From Akkermansiaceae bacterium (lineage in GTDB: Bacteria; Verrucomicrobiota; Verrucomicrobiia; Verrucomicrobiales; Akkermansiaceae), in the NCBI GenBank assembly GCA_031422775.1, contig JANPMK010000089.1, positions 14,945 to 78,944 on the forward strand: a DNA stretch of 64,000 nucleotides. Direction: 5' to 3'. The position numbers and the translations under genes were made by a program. Numbering within the stretch: the stretch's first letter is position 1; the number at the start of each line of letters is the position of its first letter. Below the pieces are notes generated by a model. That model saw nothing but the letters and a program-made list of their open reading frames with translations. It made no database searches and was not told the DNA's origin. This document shows positions 25,548 to 38,492 of this stretch, in pieces.

Positions 25548-26423
25548 ATGCCTGATCCAAATATCACCCCAAAAAAGCCGACACTCGCTAACAAGATTTC
25601 GGTAATCAAACAACAGCTCAAAAACTTCGAGCGGAGCCTGCGATTTCATTGGAAATCCATCAAACCTGCGCCAACGACTCCATTCGGATTCAAACTCTAC
25701 GGCAGTAAGGCCATGCAGGATGGCCGCTTCGAACCCCTGGAAACCGAATTAGTACAGCGAATCCTACCCCACGTGGATGCTTTTTTGAACGTTGGTGCAA
25801 ACGTCGGTTACTACTGCTGTCACGCGATCCAAAAAAAGGTACCGGTCTACGCATTCGAGCCCATTGATCTCAACGTTCGTTATCTTCTCGAAAACATCCG
25901 CATCAATGATTGGGCAGATAAGATTGAAGTTTACCCAGTGGCGCTCGGTTCCCAAACCGGCATTTTAGAAATTTTCGGTGCCGGCACTGGCGCATCATTG
26001 ATCAAAGGTTGGGCCAACACTCCGGAAACCGATGTCTTACTCGCACCTGTGCTCACACTTGACCTTGTTCTAGGCAACCGATTAGCGGGTAAATCTTGCT
26101 TCATTATGATCGATATCGAAGGAGCTGAACGATTCATGCTTGAAGGAGCTTCACAATTTCTCAGCGCCTCACCCAAACCCGTCTGGATGATCGAAGTCTG
26201 TGTTTATGAGCACCAACCATCCGGAACTTCTATCAATCCACATCTCGTTCAAACCTTCGATTTCTTTTTTGATCATGGCTACCTTGCTTGGACTGCTGAT
26301 GCTAATCCTCGTCAAGTAACTCGCGCAGAAGTTGCTGCGGTCGCAGAAAACAAGGTGAGTACATTTGGCACTCACAACTTCATATTCGCTGATCCAGAAA
26401 CTTCGGATCGCCTCTCATTTTAA
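25548..26423 (+). CDS. FkbM-family SAM-dependent methyltransferase
   Basis: FLNVGANVGYYC...VYAFEP nucleotide-binding block and FIMIDIEGAERFMLEGA block, typical of FkbM. Confidence 0.8.
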   Translation: MPDPNITPKKPTLANKISVIKQQLKNFERSLRFHWKSIKPAPTTPFGFKLYGSKAMQDGRFEPLETELVQRILPHVDAFLNVGANVGYYCCHAIQKKVPVYAFEPIDLNVRYLLENIRINDWADKIEVYPVALGSQTGILEIFGAGTGASLIKGWANTPETDVLLAPVLTLDLVLGNRLAGKSCFIMIDIEGAERFMLEGASQFLSASPKPVWMIEVCVYEHQPSGTSINPHLVQTFDFFFDHGYLAWTADANPRQVTRAEVAAVAENKVSTFGTHNFIFADPETSDRLSF

Positions 26424-26434
26424 CCAGATTTTAC

Positions 26435-27511
26435 ATGGTCAATGATCAACAGCCAATTCGTGTCAAATTAATAGGTAAGTTCAGACCCGGTCAGGATGGC
26501 GCCGGTTGGCATCGCCGCTTTCCCAATGGAACTCCGGGAAACACGAAATTCGGTAACTGTGAATTTGTTTTCGATCGGCACGAGCGCAATTACGACTGGC
26601 TTATCGTCTGGGATGACCTTCCATCAGTCAAAGGCGAGCGCCATACTCTCTGGGAAGAACCATTAGCTTGCCCTCGTGAGCACACCATGCTCGTAACAAC
26701 CGAGCCTTCCACGATCAAAGTTTATGGATCGAAATTCCTCAACCAATTTTCACATGTCCTAACAAGCCAAGAACCCTGGGCTGTAGGCCATCATCCCGGT
26801 GCCCGCTGGGAGCAAACCAGCTATGTTTGGTTCTATTCAAATAATGAGCCTCGTGGTGATTACGATACGATACGAAATCAGCCTATCCCAGTGAAGACCG
26901 GCGAGATCTCCGCCGTATGCTCCACCAAACAACAACGCCACACACTCCATCGCAAACGTTACGACTTTGTGATGGCGCTGAAATCGCGAATACCTGAGAT
27001 AGAACTCTTCGGTCGCGGCATCCGCTTTATCGAGGACAAGGCAGATGCTCTCGATCCATACAAATACCACATCGCGATCGAAAATTTTTATGGTCCACAT
27101 CATTGGACGGAAAAGCTCGCAGATCCTTTCCTAGGAGCATGCATGCCGATTTATTACGGATGCCCTAACGCAGAAGACTATTTCCCAGAAGAAAGCTTCA
27201 TCCGCATCGATCTCGAGGATGTGGATCACTCTTTTGAAATCATCAAAAAAGCGATCACGGATGGTCTATACGAAAAAAATCTATCAGCCATCCTTGAAAG
27301 CCGGAGACGTGTCATCGAGGAATACGCTCCGGTCGCAAATATTTCCAGACTCGTCAACCTGCTTAGCCAGCCTGATGCCAAACCTCCCAGCGTGAATGAC
27401 GTAATTCTGAGCCGTTTTTGCATTCGTAAGAAATCGGTAGTCAACGCCCTCTCATTCGCTCGGGAGAAAGTTAGTGTTTCACTCAGGCATAAATTTCAGC
27501 ATCCTAAATAA
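26435..27511 (+). CDS. GT10-like glycosyltransferase (alpha-1,3/4-fucosyltransferase family-like)
   Basis: YKYHIAIENFYGPHHWTEKLADPFLGACMPIYYGCPN matches the GT10 (F/I)EN...Y.TEK..D......P(I/V)Y.G signature. Paralog of 32925..34007. Confidence 0.6.
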   Translation: MVNDQQPIRVKLIGKFRPGQDGAGWHRRFPNGTPGNTKFGNCEFVFDRHERNYDWLIVWDDLPSVKGERHTLWEEPLACPREHTMLVTTEPSTIKVYGSKFLNQFSHVLTSQEPWAVGHHPGARWEQTSYVWFYSNNEPRGDYDTIRNQPIPVKTGEISAVCSTKQQRHTLHRKRYDFVMALKSRIPEIELFGRGIRFIEDKADALDPYKYHIAIENFYGPHHWTEKLADPFLGACMPIYYGCPNAEDYFPEESFIRIDLEDVDHSFEIIKKAITDGLYEKNLSAILESRRRVIEEYAPVANISRLVNLLSQPDAKPPSVNDVILSRFCIRKKSVVNALSFAREKVSVSLRHKFQHPK

Positions 27512-27513
27512 CC

Positions 27514-28365
27514 ATGACTCCCGAACAACTTCAGGACTCCCCTTGGGATCAAATCGATGCCATTCCAGTCATCAACCTAGACAAGCGCCCAGAGCGCTGG
27601 GAACAGATTGTTGAGACCACCAAAGGTATTTTTCCAGAGAACAAATTGATTCGGTTTTCAGCCGCATTGGGTGTCGCCATACCAGGTTACGGTGAAAGCC
27701 CTTGGTTCAATGGAAAATCTACAGACTCTCGGTGGGCAGCACGGGCAGGATGTACGCTTTCCCATCAACAAATCATGACCATGGCCATAGAGAAGGGATG
27801 GCAAACGTTCTTGATTCTTGAAGACGATGCCGATTTCTCTCAAACAGATGGCAAGGAACTTGCCGCAGTTGTCGGAAAACTTTTGGTGGATCGCTCATCA
27901 TGGGATATTTGCTACTTGGGTTTCAGTAAGACACGAGGCCCCTCCCGCCTAGTCAGCGATATCGGGAAACGCGGCACCTATGAAGTATCTGGCTGCGGAA
28001 CCACGCATGCTTATCTCGTCAACGTCACCGCCCGTGATTGGCTCGCACGAAACCTCCCTGCTGAAGATTCCATCTGGCCATGGATCGCCAAACACCGAGT
28101 GATCGATCGTTGGTATTCATGGAATCTGGCGCGACATCTAAAAGTACTTGCCGTTTCCCCATCTATCATCACTCAAACAACGGGATACTCAGATCTTGTT
28201 GAAAACAATGTCGACTACAATATTGAATTCCCAGGCAAGGTGACATTAGTTCCCGATAGCTCAATGGGCTATCACATGGCCCGCGTGTCTTGGCGCGTAA
28301 AAGGAATGACCACGTTATTACACGATTCGATACGCTATCTTTTAAAGTGCATCAAAGGCTTTTGA
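27514..28365 (+). CDS. glycosyltransferase family 25 (LOS/LPS-type)
   Basis: IPVINLDKRPERWEQI start, GCTLSHQQI and ILEDDADF blocks, typical of GT25. Confidence 0.7.
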   Translation: MTPEQLQDSPWDQIDAIPVINLDKRPERWEQIVETTKGIFPENKLIRFSAALGVAIPGYGESPWFNGKSTDSRWAARAGCTLSHQQIMTMAIEKGWQTFLILEDDADFSQTDGKELAAVVGKLLVDRSSWDICYLGFSKTRGPSRLVSDIGKRGTYEVSGCGTTHAYLVNVTARDWLARNLPAEDSIWPWIAKHRVIDRWYSWNLARHLKVLAVSPSIITQTTGYSDLVENNVDYNIEFPGKVTLVPDSSMGYHMARVSWRVKGMTTLLHDSIRYLLKCIKGF

Positions 28366-28408
28366 TCTATTAGATTAAAAAGATCTTAAGATTTTCCAGA
28401 TACAGGCA

Positions 28409-29071
28409 TTACGCGTTCTTGAGCCGCCAGCCATCCCAAACAAACGTGTAATGAAATATGGCATCATGAGTCAATGCGAGCTTCTCACAGATTGTCTTCA
28501 TGTGTGATTCCGAGTCGGGCGATAGATCATGGAACTGTATGTGCAGGTGAATAATGCGCGAAATAAGATCTGATTCAATTAATCGATCGAGAAGCTCATA
28601 TTCGCCCCCCTCAATATTGATTTTCATGAAATCAATTCGGGTTACTTCATGCTCATCGAACCACTCCTTCACATCAATTAGTTCAATGGGCAATTTAGCA
28701 CCTTCGGACTTAATAAAGATCGAGCTAGCATCAGCACTAGGCGATATATATTCCGTACGGGTCGTTGCACCAAGGCCACAGGTGTGCACTCGGAGGGCTG
28801 CATTTTTAATAAAACGGCTTCTAATTTTTTCAGCGAACGATGGTACAGGTTCGAAAATCTCAACACGGCAGGCATATCGGGCAAAAATTTCAGCGGCCCA
28901 TGAACCCTCGTAGCCTCCCATGTCAAAAACAATGGAATTAGCATCTAACGGACAGTCGTAACGGAGAAGATTATCGGCATCATCCTTGCGCCAACGCTTG
29001 ATTGCGATTTCGCGTTCAGTTGGATTGATGCGTTTGCGCAAGCTGCGGGCTAGACGAGATATCAGGTTCAT
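28409..29071 (-). CDS. FkbM-family methyltransferase
   Basis: VFDMGGYEGSWAAEI...VEIFEP and DFMKINIEGGEYELL blocks. Confidence 0.75.
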   Translation of the reverse strand: MNLISRLARSLRKRINPTEREIAIKRWRKDDADNLLRYDCPLDANSIVFDMGGYEGSWAAEIFARYACRVEIFEPVPSFAEKIRSRFIKNAALRVHTCGLGATTRTEYISPSADASSIFIKSEGAKLPIELIDVKEWFDEHEVTRIDFMKINIEGGEYELLDRLIESDLISRIIHLHIQFHDLSPDSESHMKTICEKLALTHDAIFHYTFVWDGWRLKNA

Positions 29072-29149: not shown

Positions 29150-29449
29150 GAGTAATTTGAATGCGATAGCCTTGAATCGCTTCATTCTTGTCATCAATAG
29201 GATTAAATCCTCGGCCGAAGCGCACTAACCTATCATCGAGTCGTTCACTCAACCGTGCTGGAAATACTAGTCGCTCCCTTTGACAAGACGTGAACGAGTC
29301 ATCCGAACATACGATGCTCACATTATTGATGACAGTCTACGGATAATCCCTCGCCATATGATCCTTATATCCACTTTTGTGTCGATTGTGACAACCACTC
29401 GTAATCGAGTTTCGTTACTAACGATTACAATCGATGTAGTATCGAACAT
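29150..29449 (-). pseudogene. decayed GT10-like paralog (internal deletion plus C-terminal truncation)
   Basis: Two frames carry pieces homologous to 32925..34007. MFDTTS...LRVVVTIDTKV matches MFDTPDS...LRVVVTTDSRV. IVCSDDSFTSCQRERLVFPARLSERLDDRLVRFGRGFNPIDDKNEAIQGYR matches VVCSNASFTIGQRERLAFLKRLKEKLGDRLVHFGRGFEPIDDKSAAIQGYR. DNA-level similarity is visible. The catalytic EN..TEK block is missing. Confidence 0.65.
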
Positions 29450-29526: not shown

Positions 29527-30369
29527 TCAGAGGGAGAGCCAAGAAAGTGGAATTTTTGGTGTAACGATGGCTTTACGACAAGCAATAACCGTTTTCCCAG
29601 CACCCAACCAAGCTCCCCACCAACTAAACGAACTATTTGCAATAACTGCGTGACGGCAACAGCTCATCAACCATAAATCAGCTAGCTCATCTTCATGATT
29701 CCAATCCACAATTGTTACTGATGATCCATGGAAATCTAGAGATTTCATCACCCATACAGGATCATCCCCAAAAATATAAAAATGTAAATTAGATGCCTTG
29801 GATTGGTGAAAATCGATGGCGCTTTGATAGTATGAACTTGGCAATAATTCTGGGTAGTTCTTACGGCGAACGTGCAGGAACACAGAACCTTCTTCACAAA
29901 GTGCAGTGCCTAAATCTAAATTCCGTGTGTCTATGGGTGGGGGAGGGAATAATTCCTCACGGATATTATCCGCAAAATCTGAAAAATAAGCTTCGTCCTG
30001 CCAATAACCTAACATCGTCACCCTATCCTTACTTAGACTCAAACGAGTGAGCTGTTCTGCTCCAAGGTCTCGCCTTTCGGCAAGATAACTGCGATGCGCT
30101 ATTGGTAGTATTTTGTTCCAGGTTCTCACGGCCTTATGGCGCAGATGCTTTAAGCTGGGTGCTACCCGCCACTCTTCAGGCATTGGCTTTGCCTTGATGG
30201 GAAAATGATCAAGTCGATAGCTCCGTCCGTATCCATCATTTTTGTAACCACGCGTTGTATCGAGAAATAACTCACGACCGTTGCGCAGCGCAAATGCTCT
30301 TGCAGCAGCGTAGATAAACAGCTGGTTACCCAAGCCTCCCTTAATGATAGAAATGACTGCTTTCGGCAT
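29527..30369 (-). CDS. glycosyltransferase family 11 (alpha-1,2-fucosyltransferase-like)
   Basis: GGLGNQLFIYAAARA, LHVRRKNY and ANSSFSWWGAWL are the three GT11 signature blocks. Confidence 0.85.
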   Translation of the reverse strand: MPKAVISIIKGGLGNQLFIYAAARAFALRNGRELFLDTTRGYKNDGYGRSYRLDHFPIKAKPMPEEWRVAPSLKHLRHKAVRTWNKILPIAHRSYLAERRDLGAEQLTRLSLSKDRVTMLGYWQDEAYFSDFADNIREELFPPPPIDTRNLDLGTALCEEGSVFLHVRRKNYPELLPSSYYQSAIDFHQSKASNLHFYIFGDDPVWVMKSLDFHGSSVTIVDWNHEDELADLWLMSCCRHAVIANSSFSWWGAWLGAGKTVIACRKAIVTPKIPLSWLSL

Positions 30370-30509: not shown

Positions 30510-30528
30510 TTAAAAATTGATTCCGATT

Positions 30529-31329
30529 ATGAGTTTTGATAATTTGCGATTTCTAATAACTGGTGGTCGAAAAGAACATATTTTTGAACTATACGATCTG
30601 ATTCGTCCGAAAACATACCCAGGACTCAAGAAAATAAGGATCGGCAACCGAGCATCCGACGGCGGTTATGTCATGATCGATGATTTCGAGGGAATGAAGG
30701 GAGCGCTGTCTCTCGGCATAGGAAATGATATTTCATGGGATTTGGAAATGAGCCAATATGGTGTGGATATTTACCAATTTGACCACACCGTCGAAGCTCC
30801 GGATGCAGTCAAAAATAACCCCCTGTTGCATTTCCATCAGTGCGGCATTTCCGGCATTCAGGGGCAGCATCCCAAGATGAAAACAATTGGTGAAATCCTG
30901 AGTCAGGAAATGTCTGGCTACGTTGGCGACTTGATCCTCAAAATTGATATTGACGGCTATGAATGGGAGGTTTTTGAGCACATGCCAATGGAAATCCTTC
31001 GGAGATTCCGCCAGATTTGCATCGAGATCCACAATCCTCTGGGACGTCCAAGCCAATCAAATTGGCGTCTCAGAAACCTTAATATACTACGTAAGCTTCA
31101 CTCGGTTTTTGCGCCCGTCCATCTCCATGCCAATAATGCAAGTCCCCCACGGATGTTTTGTGGATATGCGGTTCCGAAGCTTCTCGAAATCACCTACATT
31201 CGTAGAGACGGTCAGTCGTTCAACGATTCACAAGAGTCTTTTCCTGGCGAGTATGATGTCCCTAACATCGCTTCTCTTCCTGAAATTAAAATCGGCGAAA
31301 TCTTAGCTCGCTCCAAACGTAATTCCTAA
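30529..31329 (+). CDS. FkbM-like methyltransferase-fold protein
   Basis: LSLGIGNDISWDLEMSQYGVDIYQFDHTV (nucleotide-binding-like block) and LKIDIDGYEWEVF (FkbM KIDxEGxE-like block). Weaker match than the other two FkbM genes. Confidence 0.5.
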   Translation: MSFDNLRFLITGGRKEHIFELYDLIRPKTYPGLKKIRIGNRASDGGYVMIDDFEGMKGALSLGIGNDISWDLEMSQYGVDIYQFDHTVEAPDAVKNNPLLHFHQCGISGIQGQHPKMKTIGEILSQEMSGYVGDLILKIDIDGYEWEVFEHMPMEILRRFRQICIEIHNPLGRPSQSNWRLRNLNILRKLHSVFAPVHLHANNASPPRMFCGYAVPKLLEITYIRRDGQSFNDSQESFPGEYDVPNIASLPEIKIGEILARSKRNS

Positions 31330-31384: not shown

Positions 31385-32026
31385 ATGAAAGTCAGTAAAA
31401 TCATCGGATTTCATCTACCGTGGAAACACACGATCGTTCAATTCAGTCCGATACGATCTGGTAGCACCCTGCTTTTTAACCTGCTCAGTGAACTCTACCC
31501 ACAAGCATCGATTGAAAAACAGCATACCTACGGTTGGTATTTCAATCATCTAAAAGTAATTTCCTCAGTGCGACATCCCTTCGATTGTGTTGGATCAATC
31601 GTTCAGGCCCACAAAAAGGAACTGACCATGGAAACAGTCGAGTGGACGACAAATCGTTTCCTTAACAATGGTGGAAACGATATCACCAAGGTCAAAGATC
31701 GTGGGAATGTTCGAGTACTCCGCTACGAGTCATTCGTCAATAACTATGACGTGATTTTCGATACCTTGGAGGAATTCATGGGGCTTAAAGTAGACCAGGT
31801 CACACGTGAAAACATCAATGCAAAATTCAATCGTGACGGCGTACGCAAAATCATGGCGGAAAAGAAAAATTTCGCTGAATGGGATGATAAGACACTCATT
31901 CATGGCGATCACATATCCGTGCGAGATGGTCAATGCGGCTACGGCAAAGAGATGTTCTCTCCTGAGCAGCAGGATTACATCGCGGCGCGTTGCAAGGAAT
32001 ACATGACGGCTTTTGACTACCAATGA
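31385..32026 (+). CDS. sulfotransferase-like protein
   Basis: FSPIRSGSTLLFNLL resembles the PAPS 5'-phosphosulfate-binding loop P(K/R)SG(S/T)T. SSVRHPFDCVGS resembles the 3'-phosphate-binding R.P.D...S block. Confidence 0.55.
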   Translation: MKVSKIIGFHLPWKHTIVQFSPIRSGSTLLFNLLSELYPQASIEKQHTYGWYFNHLKVISSVRHPFDCVGSIVQAHKKELTMETVEWTTNRFLNNGGNDITKVKDRGNVRVLRYESFVNNYDVIFDTLEEFMGLKVDQVTRENINAKFNRDGVRKIMAEKKNFAEWDDKTLIHGDHISVRDGQCGYGKEMFSPEQQDYIAARCKEYMTAFDYQ

Positions 32027-32113: not shown

Positions 32114-32905
32114 ATGATGCATGATTCTAAAGTCTATTGCATTGGAGACAGCCATATATCCTTTTTCAGTGGGAAAGACTCCATCCAACCTTCATGGCCA
32201 ACGGTTTCTCAAGACCTGCTTCCATGGTTCAAAACGTTTCACATCGGTCCTGCATTGGCTTTCAACCTCAGCCGTGAGGGCACCCAGACCCAGGGTCGCG
32301 AGAAAATCTTTGATATTCTGAAAAAACATATTCCTTGTGGAGCCACGCTTCTCCTTTCCTTCGGTGAAATCGATTGCCGTATGCATCTAACTAAACAGGC
32401 AGAGCAAAGACAAGAACCTCTCTCCGGCGTTGTCGGAAATTGTTTGGATGAATATTTCAAAATCATCTCAGAGATGATTGATTTGGGTTATCGCATCATC
32501 GTTTACAATGCCGTGCCATCGCACTCCAAAAGCCGTAAGCTCCGTAGAGCAGGAACCCACGCTTACGCATCCTACGGCACCAAAGAGCAGCGAACCCATG
32601 CTATCCGCTTATTCAATGCCGGAGCAAAAGAACGTAGTGCCAAAGTAGGTGCTTATTTTTTGGAGAATGCCCACCACCTAACTAACTCCGCTGGCAAACC
32701 CTACAATTGGTACTTTTTCGATAGCATCCATCTCTCCCAGCGCGCCATGCCAGCGACTCTTCATGAGCTGGCCATATTGTTGCCTGATCTGAATTTAAAG
32801 GGGCCTCCGATTTCAACTCTGAACTTCAATTTACGCCTGCGCGATTGGCTTCACAGGCGATATTTACGGATACGTAAGGAGCTTTCGAAATTACGTCGTA
32901 AATAA
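32114..32905 (+). CDS. SGNH/GDSL-like hydrolase-fold protein (possible glycan O-acyl esterase or transferase)
   Basis: N-terminal KVYCIGDSHISFFSG (block I GDS motif). The remaining blocks are not confidently recognised. Confidence 0.4.
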   Translation: MMHDSKVYCIGDSHISFFSGKDSIQPSWPTVSQDLLPWFKTFHIGPALAFNLSREGTQTQGREKIFDILKKHIPCGATLLLSFGEIDCRMHLTKQAEQRQEPLSGVVGNCLDEYFKIISEMIDLGYRIIVYNAVPSHSKSRKLRRAGTHAYASYGTKEQRTHAIRLFNAGAKERSAKVGAYFLENAHHLTNSAGKPYNWYFFDSIHLSQRAMPATLHELAILLPDLNLKGPPISTLNFNLRLRDWLHRRYLRIRKELSKLRRK

Positions 32906-32924: not shown

Positions 32925-34007
32925 TCATTTGCCGCGCCGTTTTATACGAAAAATGAGTCCCCTCGGAAATGGTCTGAAAGCCTTATGTGAACGGATCATC
33001 GTTTCAGTGGGTTTAGCGGTTGGATTGTAAAACATTTCAGCCCAGCGCGCCCAAGCAACCCACGGATTATATCTGTATAATACTTGTTCCCTTGCTCTAC
33101 CAACTGCTTGAATCTCTTCAGGCTCTCTGGGAAGATCAAGCAACGCAGCAATTCTATCCGCTGCATGGTCCGGTGATTTGATGTCTAAAGCGATAAAGGA
33201 ATTTTTAGGAAAATATTCGTCGAGATTTGGACAGCCAATATATAATGGAAACGCCCATCCCAGATATGCATCGAGGATTTTCTCTGTCCAGTAATGCGGC
33301 GCGCGGCAGTTTTCCATCGCTAGATGAAAGCGATAGCCTTGTATCGCAGCTGACTTGTCATCAATAGGTTCAAAGCCACGACCAAAATGCACAAGCCTAT
33401 CACCCAACTTCTCCTTGAGTCTTTTGAGAAAAGCCAGACGCTCCCTTTGTCCGATTGTGAAAGATGCGTTGGAACATACGACACTGACTTTATTCAGGAC
33501 AGCCTCGGGCGCTTTCATCGCTTCCAACTCTCTGAATCCAATTTCAATATTTGACGAAAGATGATTGAATCCGAACTGCCAGCTTAGGCAGGGTGCATGC
33601 AGTGTTACACGAGGATGACCCGATTGCTTGTGGGTATCAATAATTTGATGAAACTGCCTATAGAATGCTTTCGGATATACTTTTTTAGACTCTGGCTCAG
33701 CTGCGATGAATAAGGTGTTTTCTGGGCTACACCTCATCTTTTCCATCGGTCGCGCATTAGCAAAAACAATCCAAAAATCAGCTTCCATTTCCTCTTTAGG
33801 ATTGAGGAAAAACTCACATCTGCCAATTTTGGGGTTTTTGCCTTCACTATATTCAGGGGCAATTTTTCCCAATCCACTGACACGACTATCAGTCGTGACA
33901 ACCACCCGCAAATACTTGCTGTGTATTCGGCTATCAGGAGTATCAAACATGTTGAAGACATGATCTATAACTTTCTTTGATTCTACAAGAACTTCCCATT
34001 CTTCCAA
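32925..34007 (-). CDS. GT10-like glycosyltransferase, paralog of 26435..27511
   Basis: YRFHLAMENCRAPHYWTEKILDAYLGWAFPLYIGCPN signature. Colinear with the other copy. The track start is TTG; Met20 (nt 33950) is an alternative. Confidence 0.6.
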   Translation of the reverse strand: MEEWEVLVESKKVIDHVFNMFDTPDSRIHSKYLRVVVTTDSRVSGLGKIAPEYSEGKNPKIGRCEFFLNPKEEMEADFWIVFANARPMEKMRCSPENTLFIAAEPESKKVYPKAFYRQFHQIIDTHKQSGHPRVTLHAPCLSWQFGFNHLSSNIEIGFRELEAMKAPEAVLNKVSVVCSNASFTIGQRERLAFLKRLKEKLGDRLVHFGRGFEPIDDKSAAIQGYRFHLAMENCRAPHYWTEKILDAYLGWAFPLYIGCPNLDEYFPKNSFIALDIKSPDHAADRIAALLDLPREPEEIQAVGRAREQVLYRYNPWVAWARWAEMFYNPTAKPTETMIRSHKAFRPFPRGLIFRIKRRGK

Positions 34008-34194: not shown

Positions 34195-34998
34195 ATGAAT
34201 TTATCTAATAAAAAACCAGCAGCGATTGATACTAATATGCGTCACCGGATGCTGAGAGCATTTCGTGCTCCATTCAAACGCATGACACAGCTTATTGGTT
34301 TTGAGATTAAGAAAATTCGGAAATTTTCAGCCAAAGATGTCGCATTTCTACATATTGGGAAAAATGCTGGCACTCAAATCAGGTATCTTGAAAAGCTAAT
34401 CAATGACGCTCAGAGCCAAATCAGATTCGTTAATTATGGTCATGCCTTAAAATTAAATAATATACCAGAATCTGTTCCATATTTTTTTAGTATTAGAAAT
34501 CCTGTAACCCGATTCAAATCTGCGTTCTATTCGCGAAAACAAATAGAACGACGTTGGCATGACGTGGAAAAAATAGCGTTCGCGGATTTCGAGCATGCTA
34601 ATGATCTCGCTGAAGCCTTATTTTCAGGCGGAGACGCTGGAACACGCGCGTTTTGGGCAATGAACAACATCGGTCATGTCAACTCCGATCAGTTTGAATG
34701 GCTTGAAAATTGTGGCTACATATTCACACACAGAGAACCTATTTTTATTATTAGACAGGAAAACTTTGAAGCTGATTTCAAAGTTTTACTCCAAAGGTTG
34801 CATCTGCGTATAGATTGGAATCATTTGGACATCGCACCAAAACAGCAACGCTCAAATTCTTTTGATTATTTGGATACGCCAGAGCTATCTCCGTTAGCCG
34901 TGTCAAATTTAGAGCTTTGGTATAAGCGCGATTTTGAGTTTCACCGCACTTGTGTCGAATGGATTGAATCAAAAAAATCAAATGTAGATGATGTCTGA
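34195..34998 (+). CDS. sulfotransferase family 2-like protein
   Basis: FLHIGKNAGTQI (compare HIPKTGGT PAPS loop) and SIRNPVTRFKSAFY (compare RDPxxRxxS). Start moved to ATG 34195. Confidence 0.6.
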   Translation: MNLSNKKPAAIDTNMRHRMLRAFRAPFKRMTQLIGFEIKKIRKFSAKDVAFLHIGKNAGTQIRYLEKLINDAQSQIRFVNYGHALKLNNIPESVPYFFSIRNPVTRFKSAFYSRKQIERRWHDVEKIAFADFEHANDLAEALFSGGDAGTRAFWAMNNIGHVNSDQFEWLENCGYIFTHREPIFIIRQENFEADFKVLLQRLHLRIDWNHLDIAPKQQRSNSFDYLDTPELSPLAVSNLELWYKRDFEFHRTCVEWIESKKSNVDDV

Positions 34999-35012: not shown

Positions 35013-36290
35013 TTAGGCGCGATGATACTTTGCAGGACGTTTTTCACCGGCAATAGCGTTTCGTGTGTCCACTAGAGGAATCTGATAACTTGAGAAATCA
35101 TGCGTCTTGTAAACGTCATGGCCCGTGGACAAGACAATCAAATCATAGTCCTGAGAAATTTTCGCTTCTGACTTACGGCCTGCATACGCGGCGTGTTCGC
35201 GCGTCATTGGGATGACTGGCACAAATGGATCGTGGTAAAATACTTGGGCTCCCAGAGCTTCAAATTTCTCGATTAACTTGTAGGTAGGCGACTCGCGGTC
35301 GTCATCGACATTCGCTTTATAAGCCAGACCTAGGATCAATATTTTAGACCCGTTAACCGCTTTACCCTCACCATTCAATGCTTCAAAAGCAACCTTCACT
35401 ACATGATCCGGCATCGATGTATTGATTTCACCAGCGAGCTCGATAAATCGTGTGTGTTGGCCGAATTCTCGCGCTTTCCAAGTGAGATAAAACGGATCGA
35501 TGGGGATGCAATGTCCTCCGAGTCCCGGACCGGGATAAAACGGCATGAATCCAAATGGTTTGGTCTTAGCCGCCTCAATCACCTCCCAAATATCGATCCC
35601 CATTGCGCCGTAAACGATTTTCAATTCGTTCACCAAGGCGATGTTCACAGAACGAAAAATGTTTTCTAGCAGTTTGCTGGCTTCAGCAACGCGACAGGAA
35701 CTGACAGGTACAAGTTTATCTATCGCAAGACTATAAAGCTGTATGGCTTTTTCCAAGCACTCGGGGGTAAGACCGCCAACGACTTTAGGAATCGATGCCA
35801 CTTTGCTATCCGGATTACCTGGATCTTCGCGTTCGGGAGAAAACGCTAAGTGAAAATCGACCCCAGCTTTTTTACCTGAGCCATTTTCAAGCACGCTTAA
35901 TAATTCGCCATCCGTGGTTCCCGGGTAAGTGGTGGATTCCAATACAATTAACGCGCCCTGCTTCATATGCGGAGCAAGTGAACGCCCCGTATCAAGAACG
36001 TAGCTCAAGTCAGGTTCCCTGAAATGATTTAACGGTGTAGGCAGGCAGAGAATGACCGCATCAGCCTCTGATACTCGGGAAAAATCGGTGGATGCATCGA
36101 GTTTTCCGCTTTTGACCTGCACACTAATATCATCAGCGGCCACATGTTTAATATAGGTTTTACCGGCGAGTATCGCATCGGTCTTTTTAGAATCGATGTC
36201 TAAACCCAACACTTTGACCCCACGTCGCGCAAACTGGAGCGCCAGAGGGAGTCCTACATATCCGAGACCTACGATTGCGATTTGATTCAT
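35013..36290 (-). CDS. UDP-glucose/GDP-mannose dehydrogenase family nucleotide-sugar dehydrogenase (UDP-N-acetyl-hexosamine 6-dehydrogenase-like)
   Basis: IAIVGLGYVGLPLA NAD-binding fold and catalytic Cys block GPGLGGHCIPIDP. 425 aa. Confidence 0.85.
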   Translation of the reverse strand: MNQIAIVGLGYVGLPLALQFARRGVKVLGLDIDSKKTDAILAGKTYIKHVAADDISVQVKSGKLDASTDFSRVSEADAVILCLPTPLNHFREPDLSYVLDTGRSLAPHMKQGALIVLESTTYPGTTDGELLSVLENGSGKKAGVDFHLAFSPEREDPGNPDSKVASIPKVVGGLTPECLEKAIQLYSLAIDKLVPVSSCRVAEASKLLENIFRSVNIALVNELKIVYGAMGIDIWEVIEAAKTKPFGFMPFYPGPGLGGHCIPIDPFYLTWKAREFGQHTRFIELAGEINTSMPDHVVKVAFEALNGEGKAVNGSKILILGLAYKANVDDDRESPTYKLIEKFEALGAQVFYHDPFVPVIPMTREHAAYAGRKSEAKISQDYDLIVLSTGHDVYKTHDFSSYQIPLVDTRNAIAGEKRPAKYHRA

Positions 36291-36321
36291 GAAGCGGCGC
36301 TATTCATCTCACGAGATTGGC

Positions 36322-37455
36322 TCAGATGGTAGAAGTTTTTTCGCCAACCTCGCCCACCAGCTCTTTGTAGAGATTCAAAGTGCCAGCGCACATGGACTCG
36401 AGGTAAAACGCGGAGTCTGGCACTTTTGGAATGGGCTTGTTGGCGAGAATGCGGATGGCAGCATCGAGGAGTTCAGCGGAATCCATGAGTTTGACACGGC
36501 CCTCGGGAAAAATCACTTCGAGCAACTCGCCAACTCCCCCGCAGTCGTAGCCCAATACCGGCTTACCAATCGCTAATGCTTCCAAAACCGTTCGTCCGAA
36601 TGACTCAGGCTGTTGGGAAAGCGCACATACCACTTGGCTGATAGCCATGATCTCGCGCACATCGGAGCGATGGCCAGTAAAAGTAACCGAATCCTCCAAC
36701 CCCTTGTCTCTGACCAGTGATCGCAACTCCTCAAGATAAGCCCGTTTTTTCGGATGCGTATCTCCCACCACTAAACCGTGCACTGCATTTCCTAACTTTT
36801 TCAATTCACTGAGTAATTCGAAAAAGTCCGCATGCCCTTTGAGTCTCGTGATGCGACCCGGTAACACCAACACCGCTTTCCCTTCGAGGTGTGGATTTTC
36901 GCTTCTCCATCGTTCCAGCCAGTCTTTCGAAGGTTTATAATTTGGCGGATAATCGGCGGGATTGATTCCACGATAAATGAGAGAGACTTTTTCAGCAGGA
37001 GTTTGCGGATAGTATTTTAAAATATAATCACGGATACTCTCAGATACCGCGATAACCCGTTCGCCTTTTGTCATGATGGCGGAGTAAAAGCTCACAGAAT
37101 AAAAGCCGTGAACTGTGCTGACCAAACGCGGACGCGTGGCGGGATCCAATTTTCGCCAAGCCAACCATGCGATCCAACCCGGCACTCGTGAGCGAATGTG
37201 CAGGATGTCCGGCTTTTCCTTTTCAAGTAATGCTCTGAAAGCTTTCACCTGAAACAATGAGCTCAATCTTTTGCGATGCACCGGCATAGCGATATGCCTG
37301 CCGCCCATTTTTTCTAACGCCTCCACTTGCCTACCACCGTTCGAAACCACCAGTGCTTCATGGCCGTTTTTTACCAAGTAATCCGCGATTTCCAGCGTCC
37401 CACGCTCGACTCCACCGGAATTTAACTCAGGTAATATTTGTAAAACTTTCATCAC
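36322..37455 (-). CDS. glycosyltransferase family 4 (GT-B, retaining)
   Basis: NSGGVERGTLEIA N-terminus and E-x7-E region PESFGRTVLEALAIGKPV. The start overlaps the rfbB stop by 4 nt. Confidence 0.8.
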   Translation of the reverse strand: MMKVLQILPELNSGGVERGTLEIADYLVKNGHEALVVSNGGRQVEALEKMGGRHIAMPVHRKRLSSLFQVKAFRALLEKEKPDILHIRSRVPGWIAWLAWRKLDPATRPRLVSTVHGFYSVSFYSAIMTKGERVIAVSESIRDYILKYYPQTPAEKVSLIYRGINPADYPPNYKPSKDWLERWRSENPHLEGKAVLVLPGRITRLKGHADFFELLSELKKLGNAVHGLVVGDTHPKKRAYLEELRSLVRDKGLEDSVTFTGHRSDVREIMAISQVVCALSQQPESFGRTVLEALAIGKPVLGYDCGGVGELLEVIFPEGRVKLMDSAELLDAAIRILANKPIPKVPDSAFYLESMCAGTLNLYKELVGEVGEKTSTI

Positions 37456-38492
37456 TTAAATTCACCTGCACGATAGCTACCATCCAATATAGAATCCCAC
37501 CATGCTCGATTTTCAAAATACCACCTGACCGTGGATTCCAATCCCTCAGAAAAGCTCACCATTGGCTTCCAGCCAAGCTCTGAACGCAACTTTCCACTGT
37601 CCACCGCATAACGAAAATCGTGACCGGGTCTGTCAGCCACAAATTTCACTAGCTGATCCGCTCCAGAGATCTGCGAACCGTAATCCATCGAAACCCTTTC
37701 GATGATACTCAGCAACTCTCTGACCAAATCGATATTCCTAACCTCTGAGTTTCCTCCAATTACATATTCGGAACCCACTCGCCCGTTTTCAGAAATTTTC
37801 AGCAAAGCCTCACAATGATCCTGCACATGCAACCAATCGCGAACATTCTCTCCTGTCCCATAAACTGGAATCGGATTTCCTAAAATTCCCGCTAAAATCA
37901 CCATGGGAATGAGCTTTTCGGGAAACTGATAAGGGCCATAGTTATTTGAGCAATTCACAAACACCGTCGGCAACCCATAGGTTTGGTGCCATGCGCGAAC
38001 CAAGTGATCGCTGCCGGCTTTACTTGCAGAATATGGCGAATTTGGCTGATACCGACTTTTTTCATCGAATGCATCGCCCTCACCTGACGATCCAAAAACT
38101 TCATCGGTTGAGACATGGATGATCCGAAAATCATGATTCTTCTGCTTCCAAAATTCCAACGCGGCATCTAACAAACATGCCGTTCCAAGGACATTGGTTT
38201 TTACGAAATCCAATGGCTCTGCAATCGAACGATCCACGTGACTTTCAGCAGCCAGATGGAAAATTCGATCGGGTTTGAATTCGGAAATCACTTCTCCAAG
38301 TCTCTCACGATCCGCCACGTCTCCGAGAGCGAAATGATATCGCGGATGATTTTCCACATCGCGCAGTGAACCCCTATTCCCCGCGTAAGTCAGCTTATCA
38401 AAATTCAAAACCTCATGTCCGAGATCTAACAATCGTCGCACCAGGTTGACGCCAATGAAACCCGCACCACCTGTGACAAGTATTCGTTTCAT
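37452..38492 (-). CDS. rfbB: dTDP-glucose 4,6-dehydratase
   Basis: TGGAGFIG, DKLTYAGN, YSASKAGSDHLV and a C-terminal WW motif. 346 aa. Confidence 0.9.
   Translation of the reverse strand: MKRILVTGGAGFIGVNLVRRLLDLGHEVLNFDKLTYAGNRGSLRDVENHPRYHFALGDVADRERLGEVISEFKPDRIFHLAAESHVDRSIAEPLDFVKTNVLGTACLLDAALEFWKQKNHDFRIIHVSTDEVFGSSGEGDAFDEKSRYQPNSPYSASKAGSDHLVRAWHQTYGLPTVFVNCSNNYGPYQFPEKLIPMVILAGILGNPIPVYGTGENVRDWLHVQDHCEALLKISENGRVGSEYVIGGNSEVRNIDLVRELLSIIERVSMDYGSQISGADQLVKFVADRPGHDFRYAVDSGKLRSELGWKPMVSFSEGLESTVRWYFENRAWWDSILDGSYRAGEFK

What the first reader, a model, noticed from the sequence alone, without database searches (positions are those of the whole stretch)
25548..38492. Glycan island combining fucosyltransferase-like GTs, multiple methyltransferases and two sulfotransferase-like genes, but no export or polymerisation genes
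Seen: 13 kb of mixed-strand genes, visibly AT-richer than the flanks. The island holds FkbM methyltransferases (25548, 28409, probably 30529), two GT10-like genes plus one remnant, GT25, GT11 and GT4. It also holds two proteins with PAPS-loop-like motifs (31385, 34195), an SGNH-like protein, an NDP-sugar dehydrogenase and rfbB. Established: GT10 and GT11 are fucosyltransferase families, FkbM enzymes O-methylate sugars, and bacterial carbohydrate sulfotransferases are uncommon. Inference: the locus would decorate a glycan that is at once fucosylated, O-methylated and sulfated. The product could be a fucoidan or Lewis-antigen-like mimic, or a sulfated LOS or capsule. There is no Wzx/Wzy/Wzz, no WbaP/WecA-type initiator, no GDP-fucose (gmd/fcl) genes, no PAPS synthesis genes and no rfbACD. 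The acceptor and the export route are therefore unexplained. The only nearby exporter is the ABC-2 fusion at 21222.
Basis: partly seen in the sequence, partly recalled or inferred. Interest (0 to 1): 0.65.

Follow-up and report, generated by a model that had tools for sequence, protein, structure and literature searches.

The report
Variable LPS-core glycan locus with sulfotransferases
This 13 kb stretch is the fast-changing part of the gene cluster that builds the sugar core of the outer-membrane lipopolysaccharide in an uncultured freshwater Verrucomicrobium, and it predicts an unusual fucosylated, methylated and sulfated surface sugar, which explains why no export or polymerase genes are present.

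Summary
Between 25548 and 38492 lie 13 intact genes and one GT10 pseudogene fragment. They are two solid FkbM methyltransferases and one weak one, two GT10, one GT11, one GT25, one GT4, an SGNH-like protein, an NDP-sugar dehydrogenase, RfbB and two sulfotransferase-like proteins. GC is 0.37-0.49 against about 0.52 in the flanks.

They have PAPS-binding motifs, family profiles and confident AlphaFold models whose best PDB matches are all PAPS sulfotransferases.

The organism is a freshwater-sediment Akkermansiaceae (Luteolibacter-like). About 30 related species carry a glycan locus at the same site, between an HscA-like Hsp70 and a conserved ABC2-unk134-unk630 block. GT4 is the conserved end and the middle is variable.

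In sister species this locus also holds a GT9 heptosyltransferase and the whole ADP-heptose pathway. It is therefore the LPS-core (waa-like) locus. [quoted passage not shown]

The nearby ABC-2 fusion is a housekeeping gene that is not linked to glycan genes elsewhere. Sulfotransferases of different families recur at this locus. Chemistry, GDP-fucose supply and PAPS supply remain untested.

The parts
25548..26423 (+). FkbM-family SAM methyltransferase (291 aa)
   Evidence: PF05050 44.7 bits, TIGR01444 59.4 bits, both above cut-off
26435..27511 (+). GT10-like glycosyltransferase 'GT10a' (358 aa), putative alpha-1,3/4-fucosyltransferase
   Evidence: PF00852 34.5 bits, above the cut-off of 23.9. 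Motif HIAIENFYGPHHWTEK. Homologs of 41-68% identity in relatives at the same locus, including 46% in Luteolibacter algae next to ADP-heptose genes.
27514..28365 (+). GT25-family glycosyltransferase (283 aa; the 'LPS biosynthesis' family)
   Evidence: PF01755 28 bits, above the cut-off of 24. EDD motif. Homologs in L002, L009, L010, L022, L082 and L088.
28409..29071 (-). FkbM-family SAM methyltransferase (220 aa)
   Evidence: PF05050 41.4 bits, TIGR01444 51.4 bits. 78% ortholog in L002.
29151..29372 (-). GT10 pseudogene fragment (74 codons), a relic of a duplicated GT10b-FkbM pair
   Evidence: tblastn 58% identity to residues 157-230 of the 32925 protein. DNA repeats D1/D2, 71-78% identical to 33325-33505. 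L002 has an intact GT10b directly beside the FkbM ortholog.
29527..30369 (-). GT11-family glycosyltransferase (280 aa), putative alpha-1,2-fucosyltransferase
   Evidence: PF01531 74.2 bits. Motifs GGLGNQLFIYA, HVRRKNY and ANSSFSWWGAWL.
30517..31329 (+). FkbM-like protein, weak assignment (270 aa; ATG at 30529 gives 266 aa)
   Evidence: PF05050 20.6 bits, below the cut-off. hhalign to FkbM gives E 1.4e-3 and probability 17%, aligning KIDIDGYEWEVF to KIDIEGxE. Well conserved orthologs, 67-86%, in L002, L007 and L082.
31385..32026 (+). ST1: minimal (213 aa) PAPS-type sulfotransferase, Sulfotransfer_1-like
   Evidence: Motifs PIRSGST and RHPFDCVGS. Family invariants R24, G26, R63, S71. 63 of 90 relatives hit PF00685. 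Family profile against PDB SULT1C3 gives E 2e-12. AF2 pLDDT 96; Foldseek 2h8k E 1.3e-7, TM 0.70, and the top 50 hits are all sulfotransferases. The source's gene call was truncated to 132 aa.
32114..32905 (+). SGNH/GDSL-like protein (263 aa), possible O-acyl transferase or esterase
   Evidence: Weak PF13472/PF00657. GDSH and DxxH conserved with the L082 ortholog, 52% identical. No PDB sequence match.
32925..34007 (-). GT10-like glycosyltransferase 'GT10b' (360 aa)
   Evidence: PF00852 40.1 bits. phmmer against H. pylori alpha-1,3-FucT 2nzw gives E 2.6e-8 across HLAMENCRAPHYWTEK.
34195..34998 (+). ST2: Sulfotransfer_2-like PAPS sulfotransferase (267 aa), the lowest-GC gene of the locus
   Evidence: No Pfam hit itself. 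546 relatives, some named 'sulfotransferase family 2'. 33 of 59 relatives hit PF03567. AF2 pLDDT 88.9. Foldseek top hit is heparan sulfate 2-O-sulfotransferase 4ndz, probability 1.00, E 1.5e-3, TM 0.52, and the top 41 hits are all sulfotransferases. GC3 0.336.
35013..36290 (-). NDP-sugar 6-dehydrogenase (425 aa), nearest to UDP-ManNAc/UDP-GlcNAc dehydrogenases
   Evidence: TIGR03026 419.6 bits; WecC and TviB models below cut-off. Conserved at 79-86% in many relatives at this position.
36322..37455 (-). GT4 glycosyltransferase (377 aa), the conserved anchor enzyme of the locus
   Evidence: PF13439 and PF00534. Present next to Hsp70 in nearly all syntenic loci (59-80%). It lies directly beside a GT9 heptosyltransferase in L022, or one gene (UGDH) away in L078 and L014.
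37452..38492 (-). RfbB, dTDP-glucose 4,6-dehydratase (346 aa)
   Evidence: TIGR01181 445 bits, above the cut-off of 365. Present or absent among relatives. A contig with a precise rfbB-less junction, 37446 to 38487, is seen in run X3.
38489..40243 (-). HscA-like Hsp70, conserved right-hand flank used as the synteny anchor (not part of the pathway)
   Evidence: PF00012; TIGR01991 578 bits. 80 loci retrieved with it.
21222..25382 (+). ABC/ABC-2 fusion, unk134 and unk630: conserved left-hand flank, judged unrelated to the glycan
   Evidence: 80-84%, 54-64% and 71-75% identical in other genera. In Akkermansiaceae HZ994 it is followed by BatA, GreA and enolase, not glycan genes.
53913..55679 (+). 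MsbA-like ABC exporter, the inferred flippase for lipid A-core. The link is an inference only.
   Evidence: TIGR02204 563 bits and TIGR02203 496 bits, both below the equivalog cut-offs.

Best explanation
**What it is**
- The region is the variable (outer-core) segment of the LPS-core / lipooligosaccharide (waa-like) locus of a freshwater Akkermansiaceae bacterium.

**Proposed mechanism (inferred)**
- Soluble enzymes work at the cytoplasmic face of the inner membrane. They extend lipid A-inner core one sugar at a time.
- The conserved GT4 lays the first locus-encoded sugar, with precursors from the NDP-sugar dehydrogenase and RfbB.
- GT25 adds a hexose.
- GT10a, GT10b and GT11 add 6-deoxyhexose, most likely L-fucose from GDP-fucose.
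- Two or three FkbM enzymes O-methylate sugars from SAM.
- ST1 and ST2 add sulfate from PAPS.
- The SGNH-like protein adds or trims an O-acyl group.
- The finished lipid A-core is flipped by MsbA and carried out by Lpt. No Wzx, Wzy, Wzz, polyprenyl-phosphate initiator or dedicated exporter is needed.
- The middle of the locus is reshuffled by recombination between conserved flanks. This gives species- and strain-specific surface epitopes.

**Shown here**
- The family and fold assignments.
- Synteny and variability of the locus.
- Co-location with GT9 and ADP-heptose genes in sister species.

**Inferred**
- The acceptor, the donors, the order of steps and the actual presence of sulfate, methyl and fucose.
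For: **Organism and synteny**
- HscA-anchored loci come from Akkermansiaceae and Luteolibacter MAGs.
- About 30 share the layout S26-SQS-unk108-Hsp70 | (RfbB)-GT4-(UGDH) | variable genes | unk630-unk134-ABC2.

**Inner-core genes at the same locus in sister species**
- L022, L015, L078 and L014 carry GT9, GmhB, RfaE-II, HldD, GmhA and RfaE-I within one or two genes of the GT4 ortholog. In L022 these are followed by GT10 and GT25.
- GT9 was confirmed by PF01075 at 82-92 bits.
- In cultured Luteolibacter algae the order is unk630, Band7 x2, GT, GT25, GT10 (46% to GT10a), unk299, RfaE-I, GmhA, HldD (TIGR02197 380 bits, above cut-off), RfaE-II, GmhB, GT9.

**No flippase or polymerase anywhere at this locus**
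- The only multi-TM ORFs in any variable region are two MFS transporters.
- All island proteins lack TM segments and signal peptides. This fits the use of cytoplasmic donors.

**Family precedent**
- Akkermansia muciniphila makes an LOS without O-polysaccharide. Its non-repeating core carries several alpha-fucoses, one of them O-acetylated (PMC11436972).

**Sulfotransferases are real and recur**
- ST1. ST2.
- L009 has a Sulfotransfer_1 (59.9 bits) beside GT10 and GT25.
- L031 has a Sulfotransfer_2 and L030 has fragments.
- L082 has a 58% ST1 ortholog within GT10a-GT25-ST1-x-GT10b-GT11-FkbMw-SGNH-UGDH.
- Closer ST2 relatives sit beside other sulfotransferases and GTs.

**Variability**
- L002 has nearly the same genes but lacks ST1, SGNH and ST2.
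- A GT10 relic is present.
- GC3 is low.
- There is no tRNA or flanking repeat.
- In the source sample a second population, about 90% identical, covers the left flank but not the island.
- The island was detected in 5 runs, against 20 or more for the flank.

**Other lipid A genes**
- LpxI, LpxB and an MsbA-like gene lie in the same 64 kb.
Against: - The window's own locus contains no GT9, Kdo-transferase or ADP-heptose gene. The LPS-core assignment rests on synteny with sister species about 78-80% identical in Hsp70, and on L. algae.
- The GT10/GT25 pair is only 46%/32% identical to the L. algae pair and is in the opposite gene order, so strict orthology is not shown.
- No gmd, fcl or fkp gene and no PAPS-synthesis gene is in the 64 kb. 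The rest of the genome could not be searched.
- One published study regards PAPS genes inside the cluster as a hallmark of sulfated-polysaccharide loci (PMC11641403). They are absent here.
- ST1 scores just below Pfam gathering thresholds and ST2 has no Pfam hit by itself. The ST2 fold match is modest (TM 0.52, E 1.5e-3).
- Donor and acceptor specificities of every enzyme are inferred from family membership only.
- No expression data were found.
Confidence: 0.55

Rival explanations
1. Helicobacter-type O-antigen. The same soluble GTs build a non-polymerised, Lewis-like chain on undecaprenyl-PP-GlcNAc, started by a WecA encoded elsewhere. A PglK/Wzk-like ABC flippase moves it across the membrane and WaaL ligates it to lipid A-core.
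For: - H. pylori uses the same activities (beta-1,4-GalT HP0826, GT10 FutA/B, GT11 FutC) without Wzy, via WecA, Wzk and WaaL (PMC12342981).
- The MsbA-like protein at 53913 falls below the MsbA equivalog cut-offs and also hits the PglK model weakly.
- The window's locus itself lacks inner-core genes.
Against: - No WecA, WaaL or second MsbA-like gene is in the 64 kb.
- Sister species place the homologous GTs directly among GT9 and ADP-heptose core genes.
- The one family member studied chemically has LOS without O-chain.
Confidence: 0.15
2. ABC-transporter-dependent polysaccharide (O-PS or capsule). Its chain end is capped by methyl or sulfate groups, and it is exported by the adjacent ABC/ABC-2 fusion at 21222 together with unk134 and unk630.
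For: - The ABC-2 fusion has the Wzt plus Wzm domain composition.
- It lies on the left-hand border of the variable locus in L003, L005 and L008, as in the window.
- FkbM-type methylation is compatible with terminal capping (from general knowledge).
Against: - ABC2, unk134 and unk630 are core genes, 80-84%, 54-64% and 71-75% identical between genera.
- In Akkermansiaceae HZ994 the same NifU-ABC2-unk134-unk630 block is followed by BatA, GreA and enolase, with no glycan gene.
- In L. algae two Band-7 genes separate the block from the GTs.
- There is no PCP/OPX or KpsDE-like gene and no initiator.
- The ABC-2 membrane domain has no PDB match to Wzm or TarG.
Confidence: 0.07
3. The glycan is not LPS-linked. 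The enzymes decorate another acceptor, such as a protein O-glycan, a glycolipid or an exopolysaccharide made by machinery elsewhere. Alternatively, the two sulfotransferase-like proteins act on a non-carbohydrate small molecule or are inactive.
For: - Acceptor specificity is not predictable from sequence.
- The ST1 fold is closest to cytosolic small-molecule SULTs.
- Some ST1 and ST2 relatives occur outside glycan clusters.
- Other Verrucomicrobiota (Pontiella) make sulfated exopolymers (PMC7356697).
Against: - ST1 co-occurs with GT10, GT25, GT11 and SGNH in two diverged islands.
- Unrelated sulfotransferase families sit at the same locus in L009 and L031.
- Catalytic and PAPS-binding motifs are invariant across hundreds of relatives.
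- The locus is tied to GT9 and heptose genes in sister species.
Confidence: 0.15

Closest known systems
LPS-core / LOS outer-core loci with variable glycosyltransferase content (Neisseria/Haemophilus GT25-containing LOS loci from general knowledge; Akkermansia muciniphila LOS, PMC11436972)
   Same: - Only soluble GTs and modifying enzymes are present.
- There is no Wzx, Wzy or initiator.
- A conserved inner end joins a variable outer end at a fixed chromosomal site.
- A GT25 family member is present.
- The family-level precedent is a fucosylated, O-acetylated, O-chain-less LOS.
   Different: - The window's version carries two PAPS-type sulfotransferases and two or three FkbM methyltransferases.
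- Inner-core genes (GT9, ADP-heptose) are in the locus only in sister species, not here.
- No chemistry is known for this organism.
Helicobacter pylori Lewis-antigen machinery (HP0826 beta-1,4-GalT, FutA/FutB GT10, FutC GT11; PMC12342981)
   Same: - Two GT10 enzymes plus one GT11 are paired with a galactosyltransferase-type enzyme.
- GT10b matches H. pylori FucT 2nzw at E 2.6e-8.
- No Wzy is present.
   Different: - The H. pylori genes are scattered, and they act on an Und-PP-linked chain flipped by Wzk and ligated by WaaL.
- No sulfation or FkbM methylation is known there.
- That HP0826 belongs to CAZy GT25 is my recollection and was not tested.
Rhizobium sp. NGR234 Nod-factor decoration set: nodZ (fucosylation), noeI (methylation of the fucose), noeE (sulfation), nolL (acetylation) (PMC4881576)
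   Same: - It is the same combination of chemistries on one sugar: fucosyl transfer, O-methylation, PAPS-dependent sulfation and O-acylation.
- All are done by soluble cytoplasmic enzymes before export.
   Different: - The acceptor is a lipo-chitooligosaccharide signal, not LPS.
- NodZ is an alpha-1,6-FucT of another GT family (from memory).
- No sequence relationship to ST1 or ST2 was tested.
Sulfated capsular or O-polysaccharide clusters of marine bacteria (Vibrio sp. KMM 8419, Cobetia marina KMM 1449; PMC11641403, PMC11766843)
   Same: Sulfotransferase genes are embedded among GTs and sugar-nucleotide genes of a surface-glycan cluster, and are strain-variable.
   Different: - Those clusters carry cysNDC (PAPS synthesis), ABC or Wzx export and polymer synthesis.
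- This locus has none of these, and it sits in an LPS-core context in a freshwater Verrucomicrobium.

Membership tests
PAPS-dependent sulfotransferase superfamily, Sulfotransfer_1-like (ST1, 31385) | 5'-phosphosulfate-binding loop (PKxGTT-type P-loop) near the N-terminus | tested here: met
   PIRSGST at residues 22-28. R24 and G26 are invariant and S27 and T28 nearly invariant in 90 relatives.
PAPS-dependent sulfotransferase superfamily, Sulfotransfer_1-like (ST1, 31385) | 3'-phosphate-binding motif (R...S on strand/helix after the P-loop) and C-terminal GxxGxxK-like region | tested here: met
   R63 and S71 are invariant. HGDHIS..G..GYGKE aligns to the RKGxxGDWK region of SULT1C3.
PAPS-dependent sulfotransferase superfamily, Sulfotransfer_1-like (ST1, 31385) | Sulfotransferase fold | tested here: met
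   AF2 pLDDT 96.1, pTM 0.91. Foldseek against PDB gives 2h8k E 1.3e-7, TM 0.70, and the top 50 hits are all PAP(S)-bound sulfotransferases.
PAPS-dependent sulfotransferase superfamily, Sulfotransfer_1-like (ST1, 31385) | Score above the Pfam gathering threshold for PF00685/PF13469 | tested here: not met
   21.1 bits against 22, and 23.2 against 27, for the window protein. However, 63 of 90 relatives match PF00685 at E of 0.01 or better, and the family profile hits PDB SULTs at 2e-12.
PAPS-dependent sulfotransferase superfamily, Sulfotransfer_1-like (ST1, 31385) | Sulfate transfer from PAPS to a defined acceptor | not testable with these tools
   Needs enzyme assay.
Sulfotransfer_2 family (carbohydrate sulfotransferases such as HS2ST) (ST2, 34195) | HxxKxGGT-type 5'-PSB motif and RxPxxRxxS 3'-PB motif | tested here: met
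   HIGKNAGTQ (H53, K56 and G59 invariant) and SIRNPVTRFKSAFY (R101, P103, R106 and S109 invariant) in 59 relatives.
Sulfotransfer_2 family (carbohydrate sulfotransferases such as HS2ST) (ST2, 34195) | Fold match to solved family members | tested here: met
   AF2 pLDDT 88.9. The best PDB hits are HS 2-O-sulfotransferase 4ndz and 3f5f, probability 1.00. The E-value is only 1.5e-3 and TM 0.52. The top 41 hits are all sulfotransferases.
Sulfotransfer_2 family (carbohydrate sulfotransferases such as HS2ST) (ST2, 34195) | Pfam PF03567 match | tested here: inconclusive
   The window protein has no hit. 33 of 59 close relatives hit PF03567, best E 2.3e-6. Sources name relatives 'sulfotransferase family 2'.
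CAZy GT10 (alpha-1,3/4-fucosyltransferases) | PF00852 above threshold and the conserved nucleotide-sugar motif (..EN....Y.TEK..) | tested here: met
   34.5 and 40.1 bits against 23.9. Motifs HIAIENFYGPHHWTEK and HLAMENCRAPHYWTEK. H. pylori FucT 2nzw at E 2.6e-8. Only the C-terminal domain matches.
CAZy GT10 (alpha-1,3/4-fucosyltransferases) | GDP-L-fucose available as donor (gmd/fcl or fkp in the genome) | not testable with these tools
   None in the 64 kb. The SDR beside GT10 in L009 is UDP-GlcA-epimerase/dehydratase-like, not Gmd or Fcl.
CAZy GT11 (alpha-1,2-fucosyltransferases) | PF01531 above threshold and motifs GGLGNQ / HxRRxxY / SxFSWW | tested here: met
   74.2 bits. Motifs GGLGNQLFIYA, HVRRKNY (the canonical GD is KN here) and ANSSFSWWGAWL.
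FkbM methyltransferase family | PF05050/TIGR01444 above threshold | tested here: met
   Met for 25548 and 28409. Not met for 30517: 20.6 against 22.7, 20.8 against 37.7, and hhalign probability 17%.
LPS-core (waa-like) biosynthesis locus | Co-location with inner-core genes (GT9 heptosyltransferase, ADP-heptose pathway, Kdo transferase) | tested here: inconclusive
   Not in the window's locus (one search gave no window hits). Present at the syntenic locus in L014, L015, L022 and L078 and in L. algae L088.
LPS-core (waa-like) biosynthesis locus | Soluble GTs only; no Wzx, Wzy, Wzz or polyprenyl-phosphate glycosyltransferase | tested here: met
   Pfam on all island ORFs. TM scans across 32 syntenic loci. 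The only multi-TM ORFs are MFS transporters.
Wzx/Wzy-dependent or ABC-transporter-dependent O-antigen/capsule cluster | Cluster-encoded flippase/polymerase, or Wzm/Wzt (KpsMT) with PCP/OPX, plus an initiating transferase | tested here: not met
   None in the island. The nearby ABC-2 fusion is conserved independently of glycan genes.
Integrative genomic island (mobile element) | Integrase, tRNA or att repeats at the borders | tested here: not met
   There is no tRNA near the island (the only one is at 9112) and no flanking direct repeats. The flanks are conserved core genes.

The most novel reading that the evidence does not exclude
Freshwater Akkermansiaceae display a lipooligosaccharide whose outer core carries sulfated, O-methylated (and perhaps O-acylated) fucose. 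This would be a Lewis- or fucoidan-like anionic epitope built entirely on lipid A at the cytoplasmic face. The sulfation would be done by a previously uncharacterised family of minimal (about 210 aa) sulfotransferases (ST1; about 900 sequence clusters in public data) and by a Sulfotransfer_2 relative. Sulfotransferase modules would be swapped in and out of the LPS-core locus between species as a surface-diversification strategy.
Probability: 0.3. Interest if true: 0.6.

Novelty: new variant of a known kind. Interest (0 to 1): 0.4.

Why it matters
**If the prediction holds**
- It would add sulfate esters, together with O-methyl-fucose, to the known decorations of LPS cores. So far LPS sulfation is documented in very few bacteria.
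- It would give a first functional context for a sizeable uncharacterised family of small bacterial sulfotransferases. Polysaccharide sulfotransferases are sought after as biocatalysts, and few bacterial ones are characterised (PMC11641403).

**Ecology**
- The hypervariable LPS-core locus is found at one chromosomal site in about 30 freshwater Verrucomicrobia species, and it differs between co-occurring populations of one sample.
- It is a likely target of phage or grazer selection, and a handle for strain typing in metagenomes.

**Annotation**
- The result shows that 'no export genes' near a GT cluster need not be a puzzle when the locus is the LPS-core locus.

Tried and rejected
- **Single-sequence PDB searches.** Queries with ST1 and ST2, and the ST2 family profile, gave nothing. 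Only the ST1 family profile and the structure searches were informative.
- **ST1 relatives.** The word-indexed homolog search made ST1 look almost unique, with 4 relatives. The exhaustive profile search corrected this to about 900 clusters.
- **Metagenome scan.** The 5-sequence alignment found a single 3.7 kb contig with no island genes.
- **ABC-2 fusion as exporter.** Its membrane domain has no PDB sequence match. Context in other genera argues against a link to the glycan.
- **unk630 as a possible export component.** It is a highly conserved secreted TPR-like core protein with no family assignment. I rejected it as part of the pathway.
- **SDR next to GT10 in L009, as a Gmd/Fcl candidate.** It is closest to dTDP-glucose dehydratase/UDP-GlcA 4-epimerase-type enzymes instead.
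- **SGNH profile against PDB.** No match.
- **Third FkbM.** Profile-profile support is weak.
- **Mobile-island hypothesis.** No tRNA, integrase or border repeats were found.
- **Promoter/terminator scan.** Counts are no different from shuffles.
- **RNA-seq evidence.** No run was listed.
- **Gene table of the A. muciniphila LOS paper.** The supplement is not held.

Full report

Yes.
- FkbM methyltransferases lie at 25548 and 28409, both above curated cut-offs.
- A third FkbM-like gene lies at 30517/30529. It stays below cut-off (20.6 bits), and profile-profile support is weak.
- GT10-like genes lie at 26435 and 32925.
- GT25 lies at 27514, GT11 at 29527 and GT4 at 36322.
- An NDP-sugar dehydrogenase lies at 35013 (TIGR03026).
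- A bona fide RfbB lies at 37452 (TIGR01181, 445 bits).
- The GT10 'remnant' is a 74-codon fragment at 29151-29372 (-). It is 58% identical to the middle of the 32925 protein and is also visible as a DNA repeat.
- The SGNH-like protein (32114) is below Pfam thresholds. It keeps the GDSH and DxxH catalytic blocks, which are conserved in its one ortholog.

GC drops to 0.37-0.49 across 26-38 kb, against about 0.52 outside. GC3 of island genes is 0.34-0.52, against 0.50-0.64 for the flanks.

No Wzx, Wzy, Wzz, initiating transferase, gmd, fcl, PAPS-synthesis gene or rfbACD is found in any ORF of 150 aa or more in the 64 kb.

**2. Are the two sulfotransferase-like proteins sulfotransferases?**

ST1 (31385, 213 aa):
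- It carries PIRSGST and RHPFDCVGS.
- An exhaustive profile search finds about 900 cluster representatives.
- In 90 of these, R24, G26, R63 and S71 are invariant.
- 63 of the 90 match Pfam Sulfotransfer_1.
- The family profile hits human SULT1C3 and other solved sulfotransferases at E 2e-12.
- The AlphaFold model (pLDDT 96) superposes on SULT1C3 with TM 0.70. The 50 best PDB matches are all PAP(S)-binding sulfotransferases.
- The source annotation had truncated this gene to 132 aa, cutting off the PAPS loop. The 213-aa reading is the conserved one.

ST2 (34195, 267 aa):
- It has no Pfam hit itself.
- It has more than 500 relatives, some named 'sulfotransferase family 2'.
- 33 of 59 relatives hit PF03567.
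- The HIGKNAGTQ and RNPxxRxxS motifs are invariant.
- Its model (pLDDT 89) matches heparan-sulfate 2-O-sulfotransferase best. The next 40 hits are all sulfotransferases, but the scores are modest (TM 0.52, E 1.5e-3).

**3. Whose genome, and is this an 'island'?**

Using the flanking HscA-like Hsp70 as an anchor, 80 loci were retrieved from species-representative genomes. The closest (91-96% identical) are freshwater Akkermansiaceae and Luteolibacter MAGs. The runs that hold the sequence are freshwater and freshwater-sediment metagenomes.

About 30 of these species share the same architecture:
- S26 peptidase, squalene/phytoene synthase, unk108 and Hsp70 on one side.
- Then (RfbB), GT4 and (dehydrogenase).
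- Then a stretch whose gene content differs from species to species.
- Then unk630, unk134 and the ABC/ABC-2 fusion.

Evidence that the middle is variable:
- L002 has nearly the window's gene set at 62-86% identity, rearranged, but without ST1, SGNH and ST2.
- L003, L005 and L008 have much shorter, different middles.
- There is no tRNA, integrase or border repeat.
- In the source sample, the island sits on one Logan contig at depth 18.6.
- There, the left flank is covered by two populations about 90% identical, summing to roughly 25-27.
- Another sample holds a contig with a precise rfbB-less junction.

So this is not a mobile island. It is the recombining, variable segment of a conserved locus, as in O-antigen and LOS loci.

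**4. What locus is it?**

The decisive evidence comes from the sister sub-clade (Hsp70 about 78-80% identical).
- In L022, L015, L078 and L014 the GT4 ortholog is followed within one or two genes by these genes:
  - a GT9 heptosyltransferase (PF01075, 82-92 bits);
  - the complete ADP-L-glycero-D-manno-heptose pathway, namely GmhB, RfaE domain II, HldD, GmhA and RfaE domain I.
- In L022 these are followed by a GT10, a GT25 and a GT1.
- Starting instead from the other flank (unk630), cultured Luteolibacter algae shows this order:
  - NifU, ABC2, unk134, unk630, Band7 x2;
  - GT, GT25, GT10 (46% to the window's GT10a), unk299;
  - RfaE-I, GmhA, HldD (380 bits, above cut-off), RfaE-II, GmhB, GT9.
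- GT9 plus ADP-heptose genes are the signature of LPS inner-core synthesis. This chromosomal site is therefore the LPS-core (waa-like) locus of the clade.
- Across all syntenic loci, the only multi-membrane-span ORFs in the variable part are two MFS transporters.
- All 13 island proteins are predicted soluble.
- The window also carries LpxI, LpxB and an MsbA-like exporter.

**5. Mechanism proposed**

The shown and inferred parts are separated in the report sections.
- Core oligosaccharide is assembled sugar by sugar on lipid A-Kdo at the cytoplasmic face. It is flipped by MsbA and exported by Lpt.
No Wzx, Wzy, Wzz, WbaP or WecA is expected, and SAM- and PAPS-dependent decoration must occur in the cytoplasm, as the soluble enzymes suggest.
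- The family has a chemical precedent. Akkermansia muciniphila LPS lacks an O-polysaccharide, and its non-repeating core carries several alpha-fucoses, one of them 2-O-acetylated (PMC11436972).
- The GT10 proteins carry the EN....Y/W.TEK nucleotide-sugar motif and match H. pylori FucT.
- GT11 has its hallmark motifs.
- GT25 is the 'LPS biosynthesis' galactosyltransferase family.
- The predicted product is a fucosylated outer core with O-methyl, sulfate and possibly O-acyl substituents.

**6. Is sulfation an accident of this one genome?**

No.
- L009 has a Sulfotransfer_1 protein (59.9 bits), unrelated to ST1, beside GT10 and GT25 at the same locus.
- L031 has a Sulfotransfer_2 relative and L030 has fragments of one.
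- An 8.8 kb contig from another sample (L082) carries GT10a-GT25-ST1-unk-GT10b-GT11-FkbM-like-SGNH-dehydrogenase, at 52-78% identity to the window. ST1, SGNH and the FkbM-like gene therefore travel together with the fucosyltransferase-like genes.
- Closer ST2 relatives lie beside other sulfotransferases and GTs. One of these GTs is 41% identical to the GT in the L. algae core locus.
- More distant ST2 relatives in marine Alphaproteobacteria are paired with a capsule-synthesis-type GT, or stand alone.

**7. The ABC-2 fusion**

It has a Wzt plus Wzm-like domain make-up. It is 80-84% identical between genera. In the complete genome of Akkermansiaceae HZ994 the same NifU-ABC2-unk134-unk630 block is followed by unrelated housekeeping genes. 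unk630 is a secreted, TPR-like, very conserved core protein. I regard this block as a conserved flank, not as the exporter.

**8. What remains open**
- The window's own locus has no inner-core gene, so the LPS-core assignment is by synteny.
- GT10/GT25 orthology with the heptose-linked pairs is loose (46%/32% identity, different order).
- GDP-fucose and PAPS supply could not be checked outside the 64 kb.
- The candidate SDR next to GT10 in L009 is not Gmd or Fcl.
- No transcript data were available.
- A Helicobacter-type route (Und-PP assembly, Wzk flippase, WaaL; PMC12342981) cannot be excluded.
- A non-LPS acceptor cannot be excluded either.

**9. Comparison and novelty**

The closest known systems, and how each differs, are these.
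- Variable LOS/LPS-core loci.
- The H. pylori Lewis-antigen enzymes. These share the GT10 x2 plus GT11 plus GalT logic but use a different carrier route.
- The NGR234 Nod-factor set nodZ/noeI/noeE/nolL. This gives the same fucose, methyl, sulfate and acetyl chemistry on another acceptor (PMC4881576).
- Sulfated capsule clusters of marine bacteria. Unlike this locus, they carry cysNDC and export genes (PMC11641403).

I rate the finding as a new variant of a known kind. It is an LPS-core locus that has recruited sulfotransferase and methyltransferase modules, in a phylum where LPS chemistry is barely explored. Interest is moderate (0.4). The genes are real and the context is now explained, but the chemistry is predicted only and the organism is uncultured.

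Noticed in passing
window 45081-53627 (-), with low-GC stretch 44001-45000: A 2848-aa protein with SpvB, FG-GAP, TcdB-middle and RHS-repeat domains (Tc-toxin/RHS-type polymorphic toxin). It is preceded by a 1-kb window of GC 0.395.
   Followed up: no
window 43191-44306 (-): A 371-aa ORF in which only residues 28-84 match the IS200-like Y1 transposase domain. It lies between the conserved S26 peptidase gene and the RHS toxin gene.
   Followed up: no
window 20592-21149 (+) and 38489-40243 (-): An IscU-like NifU_N gene and an HscA-like Hsp70 (TIGR01991, 578 bits) lie on either side of the glycan locus. Two Fe-S assembly partners are thus separated by the ABC2 block and the LPS-core locus. The same arrangement is seen in relatives.
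   Followed up: partly
window 31385-32026 (+); L001 6361-6759: The public gene call for ST1 is truncated to 132 aa and lacks the PAPS-binding loop. The conserved full-length protein is 213 aa.
   Followed up: yes
window 37446/38487 junction: A contig in another sediment metagenome (run X3) joins GT4 directly to Hsp70, precisely skipping the 1040-bp rfbB gene. This matches the rfbB-less species L004-L006.
   Followed up: partly
window 9224-10039 (+), 16231-17355 (+), 53913-55679 (+): LpxI, LpxB and an MsbA-like ABC exporter lie in the same 64 kb as the core locus. The MsbA-like protein scores below both MsbA equivalog cut-offs.
   Followed up: partly
window 23490-25382 (+) and 23055-23459 (+): unk630 is a secreted 630-aa helical, TPR-like protein with no Pfam or NCBIfam family. 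It is 70% or more identical across Akkermansiaceae genera. It is always preceded by a 134-aa single-span membrane protein and the ABC/ABC-2 fusion. This is a conserved three-gene unit of unknown function.
   Followed up: partly
window 57930-61471 (-): A TonB gene, a long (546 aa) ExbB/MotA-family protein and a DUF3450 protein, with a TPR protein at 56475. This looks like a TonB-ExbB-type energy-transduction cluster.
   Followed up: no
L009 15496-16299 (-); L031 17281-18051 (+); L030 16031-16387 and 18600-19052: Other species carry different sulfotransferase families at the same locus. In L030 the ST2-like gene appears split into two fragments, possibly a pseudogene.
   Followed up: partly
L082 3120-4085 (+); L009 14716-15477 (+); L022 17325-18221 (+); L078 12761-14275 (-): Several well-sized ORFs inside the variable LPS-core loci of relatives have no Pfam family at all. 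They are candidate novel glycan-modifying enzymes.
   Followed up: no
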